Below are positions 22,580-32,000 of a DNA stretch of 32,000 nucleotides, piece by piece. Every line of letters begins with the position of its first letter. The stretch's first letter is position 1. Under the pieces are notes generated by a model that saw only the letters and a list, made by a program, of their open reading frames with translations, was not told the DNA's origin and made no database searches. This DNA comes from an uncultured archaeon (lineage in GTDB: Archaea; Asgardarchaeota; Jordiarchaeia; Jordiarchaeales; Jordiarchaeaceae). The stretch is taken from positions 29,884 through 61,883 of the forward strand of contig CAZECW010000076.1 of assembly GCA_964510585.1 (NCBI GenBank), written 5' to 3'. The translations under genes and the position numbers were made by a program.

Positions 22580-22930
22580 TCATACCCTTTTTTGAGTTTT
22601 TAATTCTTTGATTCTTTTCTTTATCAGGATTTCTTCAGTTACCAGTTCCTGGTATAGGACTCGTCTTTTAGCCGGTTCTGAGTCTTCGCGAAATATTTCG
22701 GTTAAAACTCTGCCGTCCATCTCCCTCGGCACGGGAACGTTGAATAGGTGCAGTATGGTGGGGGCGAGGTCGTAGATTTTTACGTCTCCGATTTTTCCAC
22801 AGTTCTTGATGTCTGGGCCGCATGCCAGGAATACTCCGTGAAGCTTGTGATAAGCGGACCAAACCCTATTCTCATAGTCCCAAACACTCCTCATCAAACT
22901 ATCATAAACACGGTAACCCTCACTCGGTAT
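22580..22930 (-). repeat. Copy 1 of a 351-nt direct repeat (3' end of AlkP paralogs)
   Basis: Manual alignment to 30889-31239 (offset 8309): about 15 mismatches in 351 nt, with two identical runs of about 100 nt. Confidence 0.92.
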
Positions 22931-24160
22931 AACCACTAAATCTGGAGCAAAACCCAAGTGCTCACCATAGTATATCTCTTCCTTCTTCTTAACATCAGCT
23001 ACTAGGTACTCCCCAGTCTTGGGATCTTTTATCATTTTTATTTCTTTGATTAGTTTCAATCGTAGCTTCTCATATTCTTCACGATTGAGATTCGGATTTA
23101 GAAATATTCCACATTCACCCACGTTGATAGCCTTGGTCTTTGCCCAGTCTGCTTGATTCAGTAAATTGGAGCTTTCTCTAGAGCTTATCTTTAAAAGGAG
23201 ACGGATTAAATTTTTTCGAGACATCAGTCGACTAAGTCCACCTAGCCTCAATCTGCTGAGGGATTGTGCTGTTTTTCTAGTATATAACCTGAATTTAGTT
23301 AAGAGTACATTAGTGAGGGATAAGTTGAGGTATCCTTTCTCTAGGAGCCACGTGTTTAGGTAAAAAGTTGCCTTCACACCGGTGAACCCGTGATCAGAGA
23401 TTATCAAAATGTTAGTGTTCTCCTTGAGCGAGGCTATTAAATTTCCTATCTCTTTATCAATTGTTTTCCAAATTTTTTCGATTACCTGCCCAAATTTTTC
23501 ATCTTTGGTTTCCATCTCTTTCCAAAAAAAGTGTTGTATGACATCAGTATAAAAGAGGGTCAGTTGAATAAAGTCTGGTGCATAAAGTTCAATTAAATAT
23601 TTAGCTGCTTTGAACCTCTTTTTTATGAGCTCTTCCACCTCCTGACCCAGTACGCTTCTATTAGATAATAATTGTTTGGGTTCAAGACTGTAGGCACTGG
23701 GGTTTATCCTATAACCAAATTTTTCAACTAAATCCTTTTTCAAACCCTTTGGAAAAGTATAATCTGAAGAATCAAACATAGGAGGACCAGAAACTGTAAA
23801 GCCCCTAATCACTCTTGGAGTTGAGAGAGGAAGGTTCATGATCCCAGAGGTTAAACCATACTCTCCTAGGTAATCCCAAATTTCTGGACTTCTAAAGGGG
23901 ATGCGTGTATTAACTCTTAACTCGAGATTTTTAATATCAAATGTACACCAACCAAATAAACCCAGCTTTCCCGGGTTTTTACCTGTAGAATAAGATTTCC
24001 AAGCGGGGGAGGAAAGGAATGGAACGGTGCTTTCTAAATTTGCCCACACGCCCTTCTCTATAAGCTGTTTAAATGTGGGAAGCCTTCCCTGTTCAACCAA
24101 TGGGAAAATTACGTTCCAGGTAGCCCCATCAATACCTATTACTAAGACCTTCAAATCCAA
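22580..24160 (-). CDS. AlkP-superfamily (NPP/type I phosphodiesterase fold, COG3379-like) protein, long form, Ser nucleophile
   Basis: VIGIDG, STVPFLSSPAW...TGKNPGKLG, TDVIQH, ISDHG, SAYH, IYDLAPTILHL...MDGR; TTG start after GGTG; no signal peptide. Confidence 0.9.
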   Translation of the reverse strand: MDLKVLVIGIDGATWNVIFPLVEQGRLPTFKQLIEKGVWANLESTVPFLSSPAWKSYSTGKNPGKLGLFGWCTFDIKNLELRVNTRIPFRSPEIWDYLGEYGLTSGIMNLPLSTPRVIRGFTVSGPPMFDSSDYTFPKGLKKDLVEKFGYRINPSAYSLEPKQLLSNRSVLGQEVEELIKKRFKAAKYLIELYAPDFIQLTLFYTDVIQHFFWKEMETKDEKFGQVIEKIWKTIDKEIGNLIASLKENTNILIISDHGFTGVKATFYLNTWLLEKGYLNLSLTNVLLTKFRLYTRKTAQSLSRLRLGGLSRLMSRKNLIRLLLKISSRESSNLLNQADWAKTKAINVGECGIFLNPNLNREEYEKLRLKLIKEIKMIKDPKTGEYLVADVKKKEEIYYGEHLGFAPDLVVIPSEGYRVYDSLMRSVWDYENRVWSAYHKLHGVFLACGPDIKNCGKIGDVKIYDLAPTILHLFNVPVPREMDGRVLTEIFREDSEPAKRRVLYQELVTEEILIKKRIKELKTQKRV

Positions 24161-26376: not shown

Positions 26377-26925
26377 CTATGAGGTATTTTCAATTTTTGG
26401 TGGAATGTATCCTAAGTCCTCCAGTTTTTTGAGTATTTTGTTAACGTTTTCTTCTATGGTATCTTTGTATGTGTCAACTATGACTTCCGGGTTTAGCGGT
26501 TCCTCGTATGGGTCTTGGATTCCTGTTAGGTCGGTTATTTCGCCCTTTAGTGCCTTTTTGTAGAGACCTTTTGGGTCTCTTTTTATGCATTCTTCTAGGG
26601 GGCATTTTACCCAGACCTCAACAAAGTTTCCTATCAGGTTTCTGGCATGTTCACGGAAGTTTCTTAAGGGTGAGATTAAGCCCACTATTACGGCTACTCC
26701 GTTTCTAACCAATAGTTTGGTTACATATGCTACTCTTTTCGCGTGGGTTTCTCTATCCTCTATGGTAAATCCTAGGTCTGGGCTGAGATTTTTTCTAACC
26801 TCATCTCCATCAAGAACTTCAACATTTAGGCCCCTTTCTCTTAGAACCTTTTCTAGGGCCAGTGCTATGGTGGTTTTTCCTGACGCAGGTAATCCTGTGA
26901 GCCAGACAGCGAAACCACTCCTCAT
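26377..26925 (-). CDS. cysC: Adenylyl-sulfate (APS) kinase
   Basis: WLTGLPASGKTT P-loop, LDGDEVRKNL, ISP, RDPKGLYKKA, TGIQDPYEEP; ATG 26925 after GGTGA (alternative GTG 26934 overlaps the AlkP stop). Confidence 0.96.
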   Translation of the reverse strand: MRSGFAVWLTGLPASGKTTIALALEKVLRERGLNVEVLDGDEVRKNLSPDLGFTIEDRETHAKRVAYVTKLLVRNGVAVIVGLISPLRNFREHARNLIGNFVEVWVKCPLEECIKRDPKGLYKKALKGEITDLTGIQDPYEEPLNPEVIVDTYKDTIEENVNKILKKLEDLGYIPPKIENTS

Positions 26926-26930
26926 AAAAC

Positions 26931-28307
26931 TCACCAATTTATTATTTTGCCTCGCATCTCTTTTGGAACTGGTATTCCTAGTATGTTTAGAACAGTGGGA
27001 GCAACATCAAGAATATTGATGTTTCTGAGTTCTAAGCCTGAATTTTTTGTGGGATCGTAGAGTATAAATATTCCATACTCGGAGTGTACCGCGTCATCTG
27101 GTCCAGTATCGTTTTCTGATAAGTATAGGGTTTCATACCCGATTGTTCCCGCTGATCTCCAGTATAGGTCATCAAAGTATACTATTAAATCAGGAGAATC
27201 ACCGTTAAGTTCCTCATATATTTCTTCTGGCTTGTAGATCTTGTTGTAGAACTTTTCCCCGTTGGGTCCCTGAATCTGTTTTAATTTATCTGCTAATTCG
27301 TCTAATGTTTTTTCGTAGTCCTCCGGTGTCACTGTTCCTTGTGGTTCTCTTCCCTCTACATTTATGAATATTCGGGCGTAGTAGCCTCCCCATCCCCAAG
27401 CCTTAGTTTGGGCCCAATCAATTGGCGTATCTTCTATCTTTGCACCTCTTTCAGGATTGCCTTTTATTTTTAGGTAGCCTTCCTGCATCAGCCATTGATT
27501 AATACAAAAGGCCCCCTTCATTTGTTTAGCTCCATGGTCAGACACAACCAGAATTATGGTATCATTATCAAGGAGTCCAAGTAAATCGCCTATCTCCTTA
27601 TCTAGGTACCTGTAATATTCCCTAATCACGTTCTCATATTTGTTGTTGGGAACATATTTCAAGTGCTCCTTATCGAAAAACTTCCAGAAGGCATGATGTA
27701 TCCTATCCAAACCAATTTCCACAAAGGCAAAAAGGTCCCAACCCCCTTTTTGTATTAGATATTTTATCACCCGGAAGTGCTGTTCAGTCATCTCATATAT
27801 TCTTTCCAAGACTTGGTCTCTTTCTTCTGCTCTGAACTCAACATCAAATATGTATTTTCCAAATTTTGCTTCCAACTCATTTTTTAGCTCTTTAGGATAG
27901 GTGTAATCCTTCTCAGCGTCGGGAGTGATGAAACAGGAGATTAGACACCCATTAACCGGTTTCGGCGGGTAGCTAGGGGGAACCCCCACTATACAGGATT
28001 TAAGGCCTTTTTCTGAGAGTATGTCCCATATAGTTTTGTGCTTTATAGATTTGGAGTTTGCTATCCACGTTTCATACGAGTAACTTTTTTTGTGTCTAAA
28101 CCCATACAGCCCCAGAGTCCCAGGATCCCTGCTGGTCATCATAACCATCCAAGCGGGAATGGTTATGGGGGGTATGCATGACTTTAGCTTACCGTAGACC
28201 CCGTGGCTCAGCATCTTTTTAATATTGGGTAGGTCGTCTAGAAACTTTTCAAAAACCAGTTCTGGCGCCGCACAGTCTAATCCTACTATTAACACCTTTT
28301 TTGGCAT
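26931..28307 (-). CDS. AlkP-superfamily (COG3379-like) protein, short form, Thr nucleophile
   Basis: IVGLDC, SCIPPITIPAW...TSRDPGTLG, LDRIHH, VSDHG, DAVH, ILDVAPTVL...MRGK; no signal peptide; ends right after MRGK. Confidence 0.9.
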   Translation of the reverse strand: MPKKVLIVGLDCAAPELVFEKFLDDLPNIKKMLSHGVYGKLKSCIPPITIPAWMVMMTSRDPGTLGLYGFRHKKSYSYETWIANSKSIKHKTIWDILSEKGLKSCIVGVPPSYPPKPVNGCLISCFITPDAEKDYTYPKELKNELEAKFGKYIFDVEFRAEERDQVLERIYEMTEQHFRVIKYLIQKGGWDLFAFVEIGLDRIHHAFWKFFDKEHLKYVPNNKYENVIREYYRYLDKEIGDLLGLLDNDTIILVVSDHGAKQMKGAFCINQWLMQEGYLKIKGNPERGAKIEDTPIDWAQTKAWGWGGYYARIFINVEGREPQGTVTPEDYEKTLDELADKLKQIQGPNGEKFYNKIYKPEEIYEELNGDSPDLIVYFDDLYWRSAGTIGYETLYLSENDTGPDDAVHSEYGIFILYDPTKNSGLELRNINILDVAPTVLNILGIPVPKEMRGKIINW

Positions 28308-28309
28308 GT

Positions 28310-29359
28310 TTACTTGCCTCCTCCTAACCTCCTTAGTAATAGTTCCAGAAGTTTTTCTGTTTCGCTTTTAGGCACCACAGCTGCAAAAACTTCTTCTTTA
28401 CCCCCCGCTTCGTATCCCAAATTGTTGGCAAAATTGATTAGTTCTTGGGAGCAAAAAAGTTTATTCCCGCTTCTCATATACACCTGATCTCTGTCCGGAA
28501 ACCAGCCCCTATTTATTACAACCACTATGCTGTCATTGTTTTTCCAAGCCAGCCGCCTCGTGACAGTAGATGTTACATTGTAGGGGGTGTTTATATCCCA
28601 GATTAGAATCTTACCTTCTCTGCGGGTAGGTGGTCTACTGGTTTGTTTTTCTACCTCTTTTCTTAGAACTTTAAGATTATTGTTCCATAAAGGGTTTTCC
28701 AAAATTATTTGTGGATCATTTTGCAGTAGTGTGAATGGTGCTTTGAGAACCCCCCTTCTGTCTCCAACTTTATAGTTGGTGTCTATTAGCTCCACCATTC
28801 TGAGAAGATCGTTGAAGGAAAGCCCCGATTCCTCGAGGTATTCCTCTATCGTTATGTAAACTTCTCTTTTATCTTTGAGTTTAGTTTCGTGGTCGGCTAC
28901 AGCACCCAACACCGCAGGAAGGGTTACCGGATTATTTAGATAGCAGTTTAAAAACCAGGAGGCTGAGGGATATTTTTCACCATTGTTTCCTTCGATTAGG
29001 GGGTTGAAGTGGTGTATTTCTTCTATTTTTTCTTGAATGTGGTGGTCGAAGTAGAAAACTTCTGCTTTGGAATGTTCTTTGAGTTTGAGAATGTTGTTTT
29101 TGGGAAGGTTTATGTCTACTATGATTATGAACTGGCAATTTTTTGAGCTTATTTTCTCAATTTCATCGTCGCTAAGACGATAATTCCCAATAGGGGGAGT
29201 GTAATTCTCAATAGCAAATTTGTTCTTCTCTTTTCTAAGGTACTGCAGTAGTAAAGCCGCTGAGGAAATGCCGTCTGTGTCCCAGTGATGAATTATCAAT
29301 CCTTCGTCATAGTTCTTAACGCTTTCAAGCTCTAGTTCATCGCTTTTGAAAGAAAACAT
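28310..29359 (-). CDS. DHH-family phosphoesterase (candidate PAP 3'-phosphatase)
   Basis: HHWDTDG, VDIN, FDHH, YPSAS, LGAVAD; DHHA1-like end AGGKEEVFAA; ATG directly after the sat stop. Confidence 0.85.
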   Translation of the reverse strand: MFSFKSDELELESVKNYDEGLIIHHWDTDGISSAALLLQYLRKEKNKFAIENYTPPIGNYRLSDDEIEKISSKNCQFIIIVDINLPKNNILKLKEHSKAEVFYFDHHIQEKIEEIHHFNPLIEGNNGEKYPSASWFLNCYLNNPVTLPAVLGAVADHETKLKDKREVYITIEEYLEESGLSFNDLLRMVELIDTNYKVGDRRGVLKAPFTLLQNDPQIILENPLWNNNLKVLRKEVEKQTSRPPTRREGKILIWDINTPYNVTSTVTRRLAWKNNDSIVVVINRGWFPDRDQVYMRSGNKLFCSQELINFANNLGYEAGGKEEVFAAVVPKSETEKLLELLLRRLGGGK

Positions 29360-30505
29360 TTAGGTTTCACCTACAAAGGGATTTCTGAAGCGCAGGATTA
29401 TGTCGGCTACTTCTGGTCGCATCATTTCCTCTGGTGGTCTCTGTCCTTTGATGAGCATTTCGCGGATTTTTGTTCCGCTGAATTTTATGTGCTGTTCTTC
29501 TCCGTGGGGGCAAGTTTTCTCATTTACAACCCCACCGCATTTTTTGCAGTAGTAGAACGCTTTGAAGAATAGGGGAATTATTCCCAAGTCTGGAAACTCG
29601 TCGAAAATGTCTTGCGCGGCGTATGGAGGGTAGAAGTCACCCACTCCTGCATGATCCCTTCCCACTATGAAGTGGGTGCACCCAAAGTTTTTCCTCACGA
29701 TAGCGTGAAATATTGCTTCTCGGGGCCCCGCGTATCTCATTTCGAAGGGTAGAATGCTTATGACGGCGCGGTCTTTTAGATAGTAGTGTTTTATCAGAGC
29801 ATTGTAGGCTTCCAGTATTACTTCGTCCCGAAAGTCGCCGGTCTTCTTTTTTCCGATGACGGGATTAATGAACACTCCGTCGACAAAGGTTAAAGCTGTC
29901 TTTTGAACATATTCGTGCCCCAAATGAGGCGCGTTCCTAGTTTGGAATCCGACTATTGTTCTCCACCCTTTCTCCTTAAATAGAATCCTGGTTTCTACTG
30001 GCTTTAGATTATATTTTGAAAAAGGGGTTTTCATTTCAGTTATTAGATCAATCTTCCCACCCAAAAGGCGTTCTCCCATACTATTGACCTTCGCCACGCC
30101 TGGGTGTTTAGCGTCCAGGGTCCCATAGACTTTCTGAGCAAATTCCCTTTTATCATATTTGTACACATCCTCGACACGCATTAGTGCCAGAGTCCCCTTC
30201 TCGTATGAGAGAGTGATTGTATCTCCCGCCCTTACTTCAAAGTTATTTGGAATATCTAAGACTATTGGTAGTGTCCAAGGCAAATCGTTGGCTAATCTCT
30301 TTTCGTCTAGTACACTATGATAATCCTCCTCCAGAAGGAAGCCCTCCAGAGGACTGAAGACGCCCCTAGCTATGTTCTCCACATCTTTAGCCAGTCCTTC
30401 ATTAATATTTATAGTGGATAGTTCGCCTACCTGTTCTAGAAGTCTTTCTTTTTCACGCTCCGGTATTTCCCGGTTTACCAGTTTTCCACCGTGGGGCTTG
30501 GGCAT
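29360..30505 (-). CDS. sat: Sulfate adenylyltransferase (ATP sulfurylase)
   Basis: MPKPHGGKLV, FSPLEGF, FQTRNAPHLGHE, MRYAGPREAIFHAIVRKNFGCTHFIVGRDHAG, FSGTKIREML. Confidence 0.97.
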   Translation of the reverse strand: MPKPHGGKLVNREIPEREKERLLEQVGELSTININEGLAKDVENIARGVFSPLEGFLLEEDYHSVLDEKRLANDLPWTLPIVLDIPNNFEVRAGDTITLSYEKGTLALMRVEDVYKYDKREFAQKVYGTLDAKHPGVAKVNSMGERLLGGKIDLITEMKTPFSKYNLKPVETRILFKEKGWRTIVGFQTRNAPHLGHEYVQKTALTFVDGVFINPVIGKKKTGDFRDEVILEAYNALIKHYYLKDRAVISILPFEMRYAGPREAIFHAIVRKNFGCTHFIVGRDHAGVGDFYPPYAAQDIFDEFPDLGIIPLFFKAFYYCKKCGGVVNEKTCPHGEEQHIKFSGTKIREMLIKGQRPPEEMMRPEVADIILRFRNPFVGET

Positions 30506-30533: not shown

Positions 30534-30767
30534 TTAGCCGAGGTAACCTAGGGCTCTAAGCCGCTCCTTTACTCTCTCCTCATCCTCTTTGCTGAAGGGT
30601 TCTCCTTCTTCCTCTTCTTCCTCAGCCACAATTTCCCGAAGCACATATGTTACATAGCTTGAAACCGAGGTAAAACCGGTGCCCTTTATTCTTTCCTGAA
30701 CCTTTTTAAATAGAGGTGTAGGTATAGAAACGGTGGTAAATTTTTTATCCTTCTTGGGCAAATCCAA
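30534..30767 (-). CDS. CopG/ribbon-helix-helix regulator with acidic linker and C-terminal RLRALGY helix
   Basis: FTTVSIPTPLFKKVQERIKGTGFTSVSSYVTYVLREIV (RHH), EEEEEEG linker, EDEERVKERLRALGYLG tail; TTG start after GGGTG. Confidence 0.85.
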   Translation of the reverse strand: MDLPKKDKKFTTVSIPTPLFKKVQERIKGTGFTSVSSYVTYVLREIVAEEEEEEGEPFSKEDEERVKERLRALGYLG

Positions 30768-30778
30768 ACACCCTGTAA

Positions 30779-30792
30779 TTAATTATAATTAA
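30779..30792. promoter_or_regulatory. 14-bp perfect palindrome, candidate operator of the RHH-sat operon
   Basis: TTAATTATAATTAA, 12 nt upstream of the RHH start, over the expected transcription start. Confidence 0.35.
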
Positions 30793-30888: not shown

Positions 30889-31239
30889 CTATACCTTTTT
30901 TTGGATTTTTAATTCTTTGATTCTTTTCTTTATCAGGATTTCTTCAGTTACCAGTTCCTGGTATAGGACTTGTCTTTTAGCTGGTTCTGAGTCTTCGCGA
31001 AATATTTCTTTTAGGACCCTGCCGTCCATCTCCCTCGGCACGGGAACGTTGAATAGGTGCAGTATGGTGGGGGCGAGGTCGTAGATTTTTACGTCTCCGA
31101 TTTTTCCACAGTTCTTGATGTCTGGACCGCATGCTAGAAATACTCCGTGAAGCTTGTGATAAGCGGACCAAACCCTATTCTCATAGTCCCAAACACTCCT
31201 CATCAAACTATCATAAACACGGTAACCCTCACTCGGTAT
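30889..31239 (-). repeat. Copy 2 of the 351-nt direct repeat
   Basis: About 96% identical to 22580-22930 by manual comparison. Confidence 0.92.
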
Positions 31240-32000
31240 TACTATCAGGTCTGGCGACAATTCCAGATGTTCCCCATGGTAAATTTCCTCCTTTCTTTTA
31301 ACGTCAGAGACCGGATTTTCCCCTGTTTTTGGATTTTTTATCGTTTTTATTTCTTTGATTAGTAGCGTCCTTAGTGTTTCGTAATCTTTTTGGTTAAGTT
31401 CTGGGTTTAAGAATACCCCACATTCTCCGACACAAATGGCTTTAGTTGAGCCCCAGTCCACTTGCCATATTAGCTCCGGGCTTGAAACCTCTGGTGGAAG
31501 AATCTTCTGCTGGAGACTCATTAATTTTTCTGGAGGTATTATTCTTCTCACCATTTTATCCAGGCCTAATTGGCGTACAACATGTAATATTTTCTTATTG
31601 AATAGTCGGAGCCTGCTTAGTAATATGTTAAAAAGGGACAGATTCAAATATCCATTCTCCAAAAACCAGTTATTCAGGCAGAAGGTTGCCTTTAAGCTTG
31701 TAAAGCCATGATCGGAAATAATTAAAATATTAGTATCTTCTCCAACTTCTTCAAGAAGTTTTCCTATTTCTGAATCAATCATCTTCCAAATATTTTCAAT
31801 GACTCTACCAAACCGTTCATCCTCTGTTTCCATTTCTTTCCAGAAAAAGTGTTGCACCGCATCGGTGTAAAAAAGGGTTAGTTGAACAAAATCAGGCGAG
31901 TAAAGTTTGATTAGGTATTTGGTTACTTCGAATCTCTTTTTAATAAGCTCCTCCACTTCTGAGACAAACCTATCTTTTCTAGCCAATTGGTGCTGCGGAT
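30889..32000 (-). CDS. AlkP-superfamily (COG3379-like) protein, long form, 5'-truncated by the window edge
   Basis: Frame is open beyond the track's TTG at 31986 to position 32000 (PQHQLARKDR...); TDAVQH, ISDHG, SAYH; close paralog of 22580-24160. Confidence 0.9.
   Translation of the reverse strand, partial: PQHQLARKDRFVSEVEELIKKRFEVTKYLIKLYSPDFVQLTLFYTDAVQHFFWKEMETEDERFGRVIENIWKMIDSEIGKLLEEVGEDTNILIISDHGFTSLKATFCLNNWFLENGYLNLSLFNILLSRLRLFNKKILHVVRQLGLDKMVRRIIPPEKLMSLQQKILPPEVSSPELIWQVDWGSTKAICVGECGVFLNPELNQKDYETLRTLLIKEIKTIKNPKTGENPVSDVKRKEEIYHGEHLELSPDLIVIPSEGYRVYDSLMRSVWDYENRVWSAYHKLHGVFLACGPDIKNCGKIGDVKIYDLAPTILHLFNVPVPREMDGRVLKEIFREDSEPAKRQVLYQELVTEEILIKKRIKELKIQKKV

What the first reader, a model, noticed from the sequence alone, without database searches (positions are those of the whole stretch)
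30534..30596. RHH regulator carries the C-terminal helix that its operon's AlkP enzyme lacks (possible split enzyme or sensor)
Seen: the RHH protein ends EDEERVKERLRAL-GYLG after a poly-Glu linker. Both long AlkP paralogs end with a matching helix, TEEILIKKRIKEL (shared [IV]-K-x-R-[IL]-[KR]-x-L). The short AlkP in the same operon (26931-28307) stops at MRGKIINW and has no such tail. Known: an E..RL..LGY tail is common at the C-terminus of AlkP/sulfatase-fold proteins. Inference: the regulator may donate this helix in trans to the tail-less enzyme. This would make it an accessory subunit, or would link operon transcription to the enzyme's state.
Basis: partly seen in the sequence, partly recalled or inferred. 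Interest (0 to 1): 0.7.

Follow-up and report, generated by a model that had tools for sequence, protein, structure and literature searches.

The report
Sulfate-operon repressor tail docks enzyme
A tiny, extremely conserved DNA-binding repressor that heads sulfate-activation operons ends in a short "LGY" helix, and a structure model with clean controls places that helix in the catalytic cleft of the tail-less phosphatase-fold enzyme of the same operon; this would tie gene control to the enzyme, but binding has not been measured.

Summary
The 77-aa ORF (30534-30767, minus strand) ends in an acidic linker and then the EDEERVKERLRALGYLG tail. Both long AlkP paralogs end in a related basic helix. 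The operon's 458-aa AlkP has no tail.

The ORF belongs to a family of more than 2,395 proteins that are 80-94% identical across archaeal and bacterial phyla. It heads ATP-sulfurylase operons of either type (sat or cysDN). A conserved operator, TAATTA-N4-TAATTA, sits in front of these operons: 49 of 75 upstream regions have it, against 5 of 4,473 control windows. In this genome the only other array lies before a TauE transporter gene. The ORF is therefore an autoregulated repressor of sulfate uptake and activation.

The tail is a portable module. 51 of 150 representative homologs of the long AlkP end in the same tail. The window's long paralogs carry a Lys/Arg variant of it.

A complex model docks the tail in the short AlkP's catalytic cleft (score 0.87, best control 0.02), with Tyr75 beside nucleophile Thr49. 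In Asgard genomes 48 of 50 short AlkPs co-occur with the RHH. However, 12 of 60 RHH genomes lack this AlkP and still keep the tail.

A regulatory plug fits these results better than a split enzyme. This scan has noted the tail many times on other DNA; the enzyme cleft as its docking site is the new lead.

The parts
30534..30767 (-). RHH-LGY repressor gene (77 aa, TTG start): strand about residues 9-15, helices 17-26 and 35-51, acidic linker 49-57, tail helix 60-72, then G74-Y75-L76-G77
   Evidence: ORF. More than 2,395 homologs at 80-94% identity. AF2 secondary structure. Best structural neighbours are all RHH proteins, but with E-values of 2 or more.
30537..30596 (-). LGY tail, residues 58-77 (F-SKEDEERVKERLRALGYLG); this is the stretch the finding points to
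   Evidence: F58, D62, E63, R69, L70, L73, G74 and Y75 are invariant in 25 diverse homologs. The same module ends 51 of 150 long-AlkP homologs. Residues 55-77 form the modelled interface.
30597..30623 (-). Acidic flexible linker, residues 49-57 (six Glu, then G-E-P)
   Evidence: pLDDT is below 50 for residues 51-55. The length varies by 1-4 residues among homologs.
30776..30791 (.). Operator TAATTA-ATTA-TAATTA: two palindromic hexamers 10 bp apart, 9-24 nt upstream of the RHH start codon
   Evidence: Sequence. TAATTA-N4-TAATTA occurs in 49 of 75 RHH upstream regions, 5 of 4,473 control windows and 0.03 per shuffled set. It occurs at only three places in this 3.78-Mb genome.
29360..30505 (-). 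sat, ATP sulfurylase (381 aa), starting 28 nt after the RHH stop
   Evidence: PF01747 at 4e-95 and PF14306 at 5e-49. It lies directly after the RHH in 54 of 80 loci.
28310..29359 (-). DHH-family phosphoesterase (349 aa), probably a PAP phosphatase
   Evidence: PF01368. A DHH enzyme in the equivalent locus of M. thermolithotrophicus is a characterised PAP phosphatase (PMC10322725).
26931..28307 (-). Short, tail-less AP/NPP-fold enzyme (458 aa) and modelled docking partner. The cleft residues that touch the tail are 48-50, 69-71, 81-86, 113-114, 127-133, 155-159, 306-309, 385-388 and 400-404.
   Evidence: PF01663 at 2e-51. Metal ligands and Thr49 are invariant in 29 orthologs. 119 of the 120 best homologs lack an LGY ending; the one exception, P0347 (461 aa), has an LGY inside its catalytic domain, not an appended tail. 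118 of the 120 are 452-476 aa long. Interface.
26377..26937 (-). cysC, APS kinase (186 aa). Its last helix ends ..KKLEDLGYI and is followed by 8 more residues.
   Evidence: PF01583 at 1e-58. Solved archaeal-type APS kinases 7yq0 and 8a8h end natively in ..LGYL.
22580..24160 (-). Long AlkP paralog 1 (526 aa). Its C-terminal helix 509-522 is the Lys/Arg variant of the tail.
   Evidence: PF01663 at 7e-40. AF2 model has mean pLDDT 91.9; the tail helix is at about 80-86. Tail classes in homologs.
30889..31998 (-). Long AlkP paralog 2 (C-terminal 369 aa; its 5' end lies beyond the window), with the same basic tail

Best explanation
The 77-aa gene encodes the autoregulated ribbon-helix-helix repressor of the sulfate uptake and activation regulon. 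Dimers bind palindromic TAATTA hexamers that repeat every 10 bp across the promoter of its own sat operon, and across the promoter of a TauE transporter gene elsewhere in the genome.

The tail has three parts: a flexible acidic linker, a 13-residue amphipathic helix, and an invariant Gly-Tyr. It is a portable docking peptide. The same peptide is attached in cis to about a third of the long COG3379-type AP-fold enzymes.

In this operon the tail most likely binds in trans in the catalytic cleft of the tail-less short AP-fold enzyme, with Tyr75 next to the Thr49 nucleophile. The enzyme and the repressor would then report on each other, as a plug, a pseudo-substrate or a co-repressor. Occupancy of the cleft by the real substrate would feed back on transcription.

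What is shown: the family, the gene contexts, the operator, and that the tail is portable. What is only modelled: the docking. What is inferred: the regulatory consequence.
For: Regulator role:
- More than 2,395 homologs, 80-94% identical from Asgard archaea to Thermoplasmata and Chloroflexota.
- The gene lies directly before sat in 54 of 80 loci, is the last gene of a sat operon in 5, and lies before cysD-cysN in about 15.
- TAATTA-N4-TAATTA is present in 49 of 75 upstream regions, against 5 of 4,473 control windows and 0.03 per shuffled set.
- Where the RHH is the last gene of the operon, the site still sits at the front of the operon.
- In this genome, four phased hexamers follow a TTTATA box upstream of a TauE gene (PF01925, 1.8e-24).

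Portable tail:
- 51 of 150 long-AlkP representatives end in the same roughly 19-residue module.

Docking:
- The model supports binding; it does not show it. ipSAE was 0.87, 0.88 and 0.84, and the best of 3 controls was 0.02.
- In the tool's calibration this mark was reached by 58 of 80 solved complexes and 2 of 110 mismatched pairs. My own alignments were used, so these counts hold only roughly.
- The three runs agree in at least 95% of their contacts, and the partner's pLDDT is at least 69.
- The contacts use the tail's conserved residues (F58, D62, E63, V66, K67, R69, L70, L73, G74, Y75) and invariant enzyme residues (T49, G69, F70, R71, Y113, P114, P129, D155, R159, W306-Y309, D404).
- No similar complex has been solved. 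The nearest PDB sequence is phosphonoacetate hydrolase at E 9e-6.

Co-occurrence:
- 48 of 50 Asgard genomes with the short AlkP also have the RHH.
Against: - The tail is just as conserved in operons with no short AlkP. This includes 12 of 60 Asgard RHH genomes, some 98-100% complete, and Thermoplasmata RHH-sat-DHH loci. About 10 of 50 full-flank loci have no AP-fold ORF within 7 kb. The short AlkP therefore cannot be the tail's only purpose or partner.
- Co-occurrence is expected anyway for genes of one operon.
- The invariant cleft residues would be conserved for catalysis alone.
- The model may echo cis-tailed AP homologs that it learned from sequence data.
- The control peptides were unstructured (pLDDT 29), not rival amphipathic helices.
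- Specificity against Sat, DHH, CysC or the long AlkP could not be tested, because only one job was allowed.
- The apparent covariation at the interface follows lineages.
Confidence: 0.45

Rival explanations
1. The tail serves the repressor itself. It links neighbouring RHH dimers on the 10-bp-phased hexamers, as the C-terminal helix of Mnt does. Identical tails on enzymes or micro-proteins could then titrate it, as SinI does to SinR. No contact with the AlkP cleft is needed.
For: - Operators are arrays of 2-4 hexamers at 10-bp phasing, which calls for cooperative dimer-dimer binding.
- The tail is kept in every genomic context, with or without an AP enzyme.
- Tandem RHH paralogs with diverged DNA-binding parts keep the same tail (L079, L082, L084, L087, L088, L095).
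- The acidic first half and basic second half of the helix would suit antiparallel pairing (read from the sequence).
Against: - Nearly every tail residue is conserved, including the polar face and Gly-Tyr. That is more than a simple helix bundle needs.
- The complex model with the AlkP passes with clean controls.
- Self-association was not tested here.
Confidence: 0.2
2. Split enzyme. The short AlkP needs the tail helix in trans for folding or catalysis, so the RHH is an obligatory accessory subunit.
For: - The short-AlkP clade is uniformly tail-less (119 of 120 lack an LGY ending) and nearly always accompanied by the RHH (48 of 50).
- The tail is modelled in the active-site cleft with Arg69, Arg71 and Tyr75 near the catalytic centre.
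Against: - The short AlkP models as a complete, confident fold without the tail (pLDDT 93-94 for that chain, also in the control runs).
- All metal ligands and the nucleophile are its own.
- About 20 of 150 long-clade homologs have no tail.
- The RHH keeps its tail where there is no AlkP.
- A repressor present at a few copies per cell is a poor stoichiometric subunit (general reasoning).
Confidence: 0.08
3. Tyr75 is a true substrate. The AP-fold enzyme transfers a group, most plausibly sulfate from PAPS made by the same operon, onto the tail tyrosine. The repressor would then sense PAPS supply through its own covalent modification.
For: - Tyr75 is invariant and is modelled touching Thr49, residues 69-71 and 308.
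- The operon makes PAPS and carries a PAP phosphatase-type DHH enzyme but no recognised sulfotransferase.
- Acidic residues precede the tyrosine, as around known sulfated tyrosines (own knowledge).
Against: - In the long AP clade the same tail position is often Lys or Arg (LG[KR][ILV] endings). That suits a plug better than a substrate.
- No AP-fold protein sulfotransferase is known (no paper found).
- There is no chemical evidence of any kind here.
Confidence: 0.1
4. There is no AlkP link. The resemblance is a generic helix cap (L-x-x-L-G-Y-hydrophobic), the complex model is a false positive, and the tail binds an unidentified partner common to all sulfate-activation loci.
For: - APS kinases end natively in ..LGYL (7yq0, 8a8h), and CysD ends in ..GY[FM] from Pseudomonas to archaea.
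- The tail persists without AP enzymes.
- 2 of 110 mismatched pairs reached the same mark in the tool's calibration, and the tool description reports that 7 of 44 blindly chosen neighbours passed.
Against: - The match between RHH and AP tails spans about 19 positions, not just the cap.
- The score is far above all controls.
- AP-fold genes are the most frequent companions after ATP sulfurylase. This includes a mini-AP inside cysD-cysN operons.
Confidence: 0.17

Closest known systems
CysE-CysK cysteine synthase complex, and CymR-CysK of Bacillus subtilis
   Same: Both concern sulfur metabolism. A short C-terminal tail of one protein inserts into the active site of an enzyme and competes with substrate. 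In B. subtilis the enzyme also binds the pathway's transcription factor, so enzyme occupancy controls transcription.
   Different: The folds are unrelated: a PLP enzyme against an AP/NPP bimetal enzyme, and Rrf2 or CysE against an RHH. The CysE tail needs a terminal Ile, whereas here a helix plus Gly-Tyr is conserved. The interaction here is only modelled.
RHH-class type II antitoxins (ParD, CcdA, RelB, FitA)
   Same: Both have an N-terminal RHH that represses its own operon, followed by a flexible C-terminal tail that folds onto the product of a downstream gene. ParD (3kxe) and an RHH antitoxin-like factor (1y9b) are the top structural neighbours.
   Different: No toxin gene is present; the neighbours are metabolic enzymes. 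The tail is nearly invariant across phyla and is also attached to enzymes. The structural matches are not significant (E of 2 or more).
Arc, Mnt, CopG, MetJ and NikR repressors (RHH superfamily)
   Same: Small dimeric repressors that bind short repeats on one face of the DNA, cooperatively, and autoregulate. MetJ is also a sulfur-pathway regulator, and Mnt has a C-terminal oligomerisation helix. The NikR RHH domain is the only sequence-level hit (NCBIfam E 0.0026; PDB E 0.6).
   Different: No Pfam RHH model matches at E 0.01 or below. The operator (TAATTA-N4-TAATTA), the acidic linker and the LGY tail are specific to this family. No ligand-binding domain is present.
Sulfate-assimilation locus of Methanothermococcus thermolithotrophicus (PMC10322725)
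   Same: ATP sulfurylase, APS kinase and a DHH-type PAP phosphatase are encoded together.
   Different: A text search of that paper for 'ribbon-helix', 'CopG' and 'regulator' found no locus regulator; I did not search it for an AP-fold enzyme. That pathway continues to PAPS reductase and sulfite reductase for assimilation.

Membership tests
Ribbon-helix-helix (Arc/MetJ/CopG) superfamily | An N-terminal beta-strand followed by two helices within about 45 residues | tested here: met
   AF2 gives helices 17-26 and 35-51 after an extended K8-P16 segment. The strand only forms in the dimer, which was not modelled.
Ribbon-helix-helix (Arc/MetJ/CopG) superfamily | A significant match to a curated RHH profile or to a solved RHH structure | tested here: inconclusive
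   No Pfam hit at E 0.01 or below. NikR RHH region at NCBIfam E 0.0026 and PDB E about 0.6. The three best Foldseek hits are RHH proteins (1y9b, ParD 3kxe, NikR 2wve), with a second NikR entry (3od2) at rank 9; all have E of 2 or more.
Ribbon-helix-helix (Arc/MetJ/CopG) superfamily | Binds short repeated or palindromic operators near its own promoter | tested here: met
   Shown in silico only. TAATTA-N4-TAATTA occurs in 49 of 75 upstream regions against 5 of 4,473 control windows, across archaeal and bacterial phyla.
RHH-class type II antitoxin | A cognate toxin gene (ParE, CcdB, RelE, PIN or similar) immediately downstream | tested here: not met
   The downstream genes are sat, DHH, AP-fold and cysC here, and sat or cysD in 74 of 80 loci.
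Alkaline-phosphatase superfamily, NPP type (PF01663), for the short AlkP | Profile match plus a bimetal ligand set and a Thr nucleophile in a T-x-P motif | tested here: met
   PF01663 at E 2e-51. D11, T49, D201, H205, D257, H258 and H408 are invariant in 29 orthologs. The assignment of their roles rests on motif comparison with NPPs (own knowledge).
LGY-tail module of COG3379-type AP enzymes | A C-terminal hydrophobic-[ST]-x-E-[DE]-E-E-x-[IV]-[KR]-x-R-L-[KR]-x-L-G-Y-[LIM] ending, within 0-2 residues of the C-terminus | tested here: met
   The RHH consensus (120 sequences) and the AP-tail consensus (51 sequences) agree at about 15 of 19 positions when anchored on LGY.
LGY-tail module, for the window's two long AlkP paralogs | The same module including Gly-Tyr | tested here: not met
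   They end in ..EEILIKKRIKELK.QK.V, with no Gly-Tyr. They belong to the Lys/Arg-rich variant seen in at least 43 of 150 homologs at the same position.
CysE-CysK-type tail-in-active-site complex | A C-terminal tail occupies the partner enzyme's active site and is displaced by substrate | tested here: inconclusive
   Occupancy is modelled only: ipSAE 0.87, best control 0.02, with Tyr75 touching Thr49. Displacement by substrate cannot be tested with these tools.

The most novel reading that the evidence does not exclude
The short AP-fold enzyme is a protein-tyrosine-modifying enzyme, most plausibly a PAPS-dependent sulfotransferase working through a sulfo-Thr49 intermediate. Its substrate would be the invariant tyrosine of LGY tails. 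The repressor of the PAPS-making operon would then be switched by sulfation of its own tail, giving a direct covalent read-out of activated-sulfate supply that is conserved from Asgard archaea to Chloroflexota.
Probability: 0.1. Interest if true: 0.9.

Novelty: new variant of a known kind. Interest (0 to 1): 0.62.

Why it matters
Regulation of sulfate activation in archaea is essentially undescribed. My literature searches found no paper on this RHH family, its operator or the AP-fold enzyme.

This work gives a regulator that is conserved across domains. It has a defined operator and a first regulon, namely the sat operon plus a TauE transporter.

It also gives a concrete, testable docking site for the LGY tail, whose partner earlier reports of this scan left open: the catalytic cleft of AP-fold enzymes. 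If this holds, it would be a second, independent case of a sulfur-pathway enzyme sensing its own occupancy through a tail in its active site and passing that on to transcription, as in CysE-CysK and CymR.

It would also point to what the very large, uncharacterised short-AlkP clade binds. More than 7,900 database proteins matched it at E 1e-20 or below.

Tried and rejected
- **Tail proteins in this genome.** I looked for other LGY-tailed proteins. The only real gene is the RHH; the other four pattern matches are short spurious ORFs or a membrane-protein ending.
- **CysN as the partner.** I considered that the tail mimics CysD's ending (..KLRALGYM against ..RLRALGYL). I dropped this as a general answer because most RHH loci have sat and no cysN. 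The two papers I read say nothing about the CysD C-terminus.
- **AlkP-free genomes.** I searched PF01663 in whole genomes of AlkP-less loci. The family is too broad to be informative, since it matches 11 of 14 control genomes.
- **Interface covariation.** I looked for covariation across 29 paired sequences. The changes track lineages and do not count as independent events.
- **Rosetta-stone fusions.**
  - None of the 120 best short-AlkP homologs carries an appended tail.
  - One of them is an AlkP-CysC fusion.
  - One ORF joins a sulfatase C-terminal part to a complete RHH-LGY. It comes from a single contig and may be a read-through.
- **Cis docking in the long paralog.** I wanted to see where its own tail docks, but only pLDDT and secondary structure are returned and no coordinates are provided.
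- **Third operator site.** The single site in this genome at C82:22437 lies between an OsmC-like ORF and a 613-aa ORF that I read as a DNA ligase without testing it. I treated the site as probable chance.
- **Literature.** Searches for the RHH with sat, for COG3379, and for an AP-superfamily sulfotransferase gave nothing relevant.

Full report
**1. Observation**

The ORF at 30534-30767 (minus strand) encodes 77 residues. Residues 8-47 have the look of a ribbon-helix-helix domain. Residues 49-57 are an acidic linker: six Glu, then G-E-P. Residues 58-77 read F-SKEDEERVKERLRALGYLG. The finding's coordinates (30534-30596) are exactly this tail plus the stop codon.

Both long AlkP ORFs end in ...TEEILIKKRIKELK.QK.V. 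The short AlkP of the operon (26931-28307) ends at ...MRGKIINW, directly after the catalytic domain.

It occurs in 5 of 3,150 ORFs of at least 120 aa, and in the last 30 residues of only the two long paralogs. Because the pattern was drawn up after seeing the sequences, that rarity is an upper bound on its significance. The RHH is the only real gene in the 3.78-Mb assembly that ends in an LGY tail.

**2. What the gene is**

The protein belongs to a very large family: 2,395 hits within the searched length band. Members are 80-94% identical between Asgard archaea, Thermoplasmata, Bathyarchaeia and Chloroflexota. The tail E-D-E-E-x-V-K-x-R-L-R-A-L-G-Y-[LI] is nearly invariant. By comparison, the Sat enzyme next to it is only 57-65% identical over the same range of organisms.

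Gene contexts in 80 loci from species-representative genomes:
- The gene lies directly upstream of sat in 54.
- It is the last gene of a sat operon in 5.
- In about 15 it lies next to, mostly directly upstream of, cysD (PF01507; PDB 1zun at E 4e-66), which comes with cysN.

So it follows ATP sulfurylase of either type, not one particular enzyme.

The upstream regions share a conserved site, TAATTA-N4-TAATTA. This is two palindromic hexamers one helical turn apart, often repeated to give three or four hexamers. It is found in 49 of 75 upstream regions, against 5 of 4,473 other 170-nt windows of the same loci and 0.03 per shuffled set. Where the RHH is the last gene of the operon (L071, L089), the site still sits at the front of the operon, about 880 bp before sat.

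In the window the site is at 30776-30791, 9-24 nt before the TTG start codon. In the whole genome the motif occurs at only three places:
- the window itself;
- a single site that is probably chance;
- an array of four phased hexamers, right after a TTTATA box, upstream of a TauE/TSUP anion-transporter gene on contig C174 (PF01925, 1.8e-24).

The gene is therefore the autoregulated repressor of sulfate uptake and activation. This part rests on comparative sequence evidence and I hold it at about 0.85.

Membership in the RHH superfamily is supported by the secondary-structure pattern, by the kind of operator, and by the fact that the top structural neighbours are RHH proteins (1y9b, ParD, NikR). 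However, no profile or structure match is statistically significant.

**3. The tail is a portable module**

Among 150 representatives (clusters at 50% identity) of the long-AlkP family:
- 51 end in ..[hydrophobic]-S-x-E-D-E-E-x-I-K-E-R-L-K-x-L-G-Y-L. This agrees with the RHH tail at about 15 of 19 positions.
- At least 43, and by eye more, end at the same position in a Lys/Arg-rich variant (..I-K-K-K-I-K-K-L-K-x-x-G-K-I).
- About 20 have no tail.

The window's two long paralogs carry the Lys/Arg variant.

APS kinase and CysD end natively in similar caps: 7yq0 and 8a8h end in ..LGYL, and CysD ends in ..GY[FM]. The window's CysC has ..KKLEDLGYI followed by eight more residues.

Earlier reports of this scan, on other genomes, described the same tail on RHH proteins, AP-fold enzymes, CysD and CysC, and left its partner open. 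I re-derived the points above independently.

**4.

*Co-occurrence.* In a sample of 151 Asgard genomes:
- 50 have an ortholog of the short AlkP (E below 1e-100).
- 60 have the RHH.
- 48 have both.
- The two genomes with only the AlkP have the gene about 1 kb from a contig start, so the upstream genes are cut off.
- 12 genomes, several of them 98-100% complete, have the RHH but no short AlkP.

In those 12 the RHH heads RHH-sat-(DHH)-cysC operons with no AP-fold gene nearby, and the tail is kept. Thermoplasmata and DHVE2 loci show the same arrangement.

The short-AlkP clade itself is uniformly tail-less: 119 of the 120 best homologs lack an LGY ending, and nearly all are 452-476 aa long.

The result supports binding; it does not show it.
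- ipSAE was 0.87, 0.88 and 0.84, and the best of three controls was 0.02.
- In the tool's calibration this mark was reached by 58 of 80 solved complexes and 2 of 110 mismatched pairs. The counts hold only roughly here, because my own alignments were used.
- The runs agree in at least 95% of their contacts, and the partner's pLDDT is at least 69.

In the model, tail residues 55, 57-58, 62-63, 65-67 and 69-77 lie on enzyme residues 48-50, 69-71, 81-86, 113-114, 127-133, 155-159, 306-309, 385-388 and 400-404. Tyr75 touches Thr49, 50, 69-71 and 308.

Thr49 sits in the T-I-P motif that corresponds to the NPP nucleophile (a motif comparison from my own knowledge). It is invariant, as are G69-F70-R71, Y113-P114, D155, R159, W306-Y309 and D404. 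No related complex is in the PDB, so recall of a solved structure is unlikely. An echo of cis-tailed homologs in the sequence data remains possible.

*The cis tail.* The long paralog's own tail helix (509-522) is modelled with pLDDT of about 80-86.

**5. Mechanism**

The most likely reading (about 0.45 overall) is that the tail is a tethered docking peptide for the catalytic cleft of AP-fold enzymes.
- On long AP enzymes it is attached in cis.
- On the repressor it reaches the tail-less operon enzyme in trans.

Because the modelled site is the substrate cleft, the tail would act as a plug or pseudo-substrate. Substrate occupancy and repressor binding would then exclude each other, which links transcription of the sat operon and the TauE transporter to the state of the enzyme.

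The first option, a split enzyme, is less likely for three reasons:
- The enzyme models as a complete fold with its own catalytic residues.
- Tail-less members exist within the long clade.
- The tail persists where no AlkP exists.

The last point also means the tail must have a function without the short AlkP. Candidates are cooperative dimer-dimer contacts on the phased hexamers, or binding to other AP-fold proteins.
- One such protein is the 230-260-aa mini-AP that sits inside cysD-cysN operons.
- An AP-fold ORF lies within 7 kb in about 80% of full-flank loci.

The rivals are listed with their odds in the Rival explanations section. The most novel reading not excluded is that Tyr75 is a genuine substrate, for example for sulfation from PAPS.

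**6. Comparison with known systems**

In function, the closest parallels are:
- the CysE tail in the CysK active site;
- CymR-CysK in Bacillus;
- RHH antitoxins, whose tails fold onto the product of a downstream gene.

In fold, the protein looks like Arc, Mnt, CopG or the NikR N-domain.

It is not a toxin-antitoxin pair, because no toxin is present. It shares no fold with the CysE/CysK system. The M. thermolithotrophicus sulfate locus shares ATP sulfurylase, APS kinase and the DHH PAP phosphatase, but my text search of that paper found no regulator described for it.

**7. Verdict**

- Observation: confirmed.
- Interpretation: partly supported.
- Kind: a new variant of known kinds, namely an RHH autorepressor with a partner-binding tail, and tail-in-active-site coupling.

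The tail has been noted before on other DNA in this scan. What is new here:
- the operator statistics and the regulon in this genome;
- the one-directional co-occurrence;
- a strongly scoring, controlled model that names the AP-fold catalytic cleft as the docking site.

Binding itself remains to be measured.

Noticed in passing
Own genome contig C174:28-63 (locus L091 28-63), gene at L091 268-1182: Four TAATTA hexamers at exact 10-bp phasing lie directly after a TTTATA box, about 200 nt upstream of a TauE/TSUP transporter gene (PF01925, 1.8e-24). This is probably the second operon of the RHH regulon. The contig starts 27 nt before the array.
   Followed up: partly
L014 7001-7465 (Freyarchaeota chromosome CP147778, also L001): A second RHH-LGY paralog sits behind four TAATTA hexamers. 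It is followed by a 67-aa ORF resembling the first 49 residues of Sat (47% identity), and then by ABC-ATPase, CobW and PF04060 Fe-S genes. This looks like a duplicated regulatory cassette driving another operon.
   Followed up: partly
L023 9409-10188, L025 8040-8738 and 12 other cysDN-type loci: A 230-260-aa mini AP-fold protein (PF01663) sits inside or beside RHH-cysD-cysN operons. AP-fold genes therefore accompany both types of ATP sulfurylase.
   Followed up: partly
P0346 (686 aa, metagenome): A natural fusion of a short-AlkP ortholog (60% identity) with APS kinase. This argues that the two enzymes work together. In the window the two genes overlap by 7 nt (26931-26937).
   Followed up: no
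P0391 (314 aa, subsurface metagenome, one 3.4-kb contig): One ORF joins the C-terminal part of a sulfatase-type AP enzyme to a complete RHH-LGY protein. It may be a real fusion or a read-through of adjacent genes.
   Followed up: no
P0392-P0400 (about 213 aa; one of them, P0396, is labelled Bathyarchaeia by its source): A longer form has an extra N-terminal RHH-like segment and a domain of about 100 aa in front of the RHH-LGY unit.
   Followed up: no
L079, L082, L084, L087, L088, L095: Tandem second RHH paralogs lie directly upstream of the main RHH. Their DNA-binding parts have diverged, but the ..RLRALGY[IL] tail is almost unchanged.
   Followed up: no
L053, L055, L071, L076, L089 (L053 and L089 are labelled Thorarchaeota, L071 Promethearchaeota): Here the RHH is the last gene of the operon (after cysC). 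In L071, L076 and L089 it has also lost the P-F that precedes the tail helix, and in all five the short AlkP differs at several modelled contact residues (N84D, 157-158, 385-388). These are lineage-correlated changes only.
   Followed up: partly
window 30534-30767 compared with 29360-30505: The repressor is far more conserved than the enzymes it sits with: 80-94% identity across phyla, against 57-65% for Sat. This is unusual for a transcription factor and suggests that several of its surfaces are constrained.
   Followed up: partly
window 22580-22930 and 30889-31239: The 3' ends of the two long AlkP paralogs, including the tail codons, are nearly identical at the protein level, while the rest of the proteins has diverged.
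   Followed up: no
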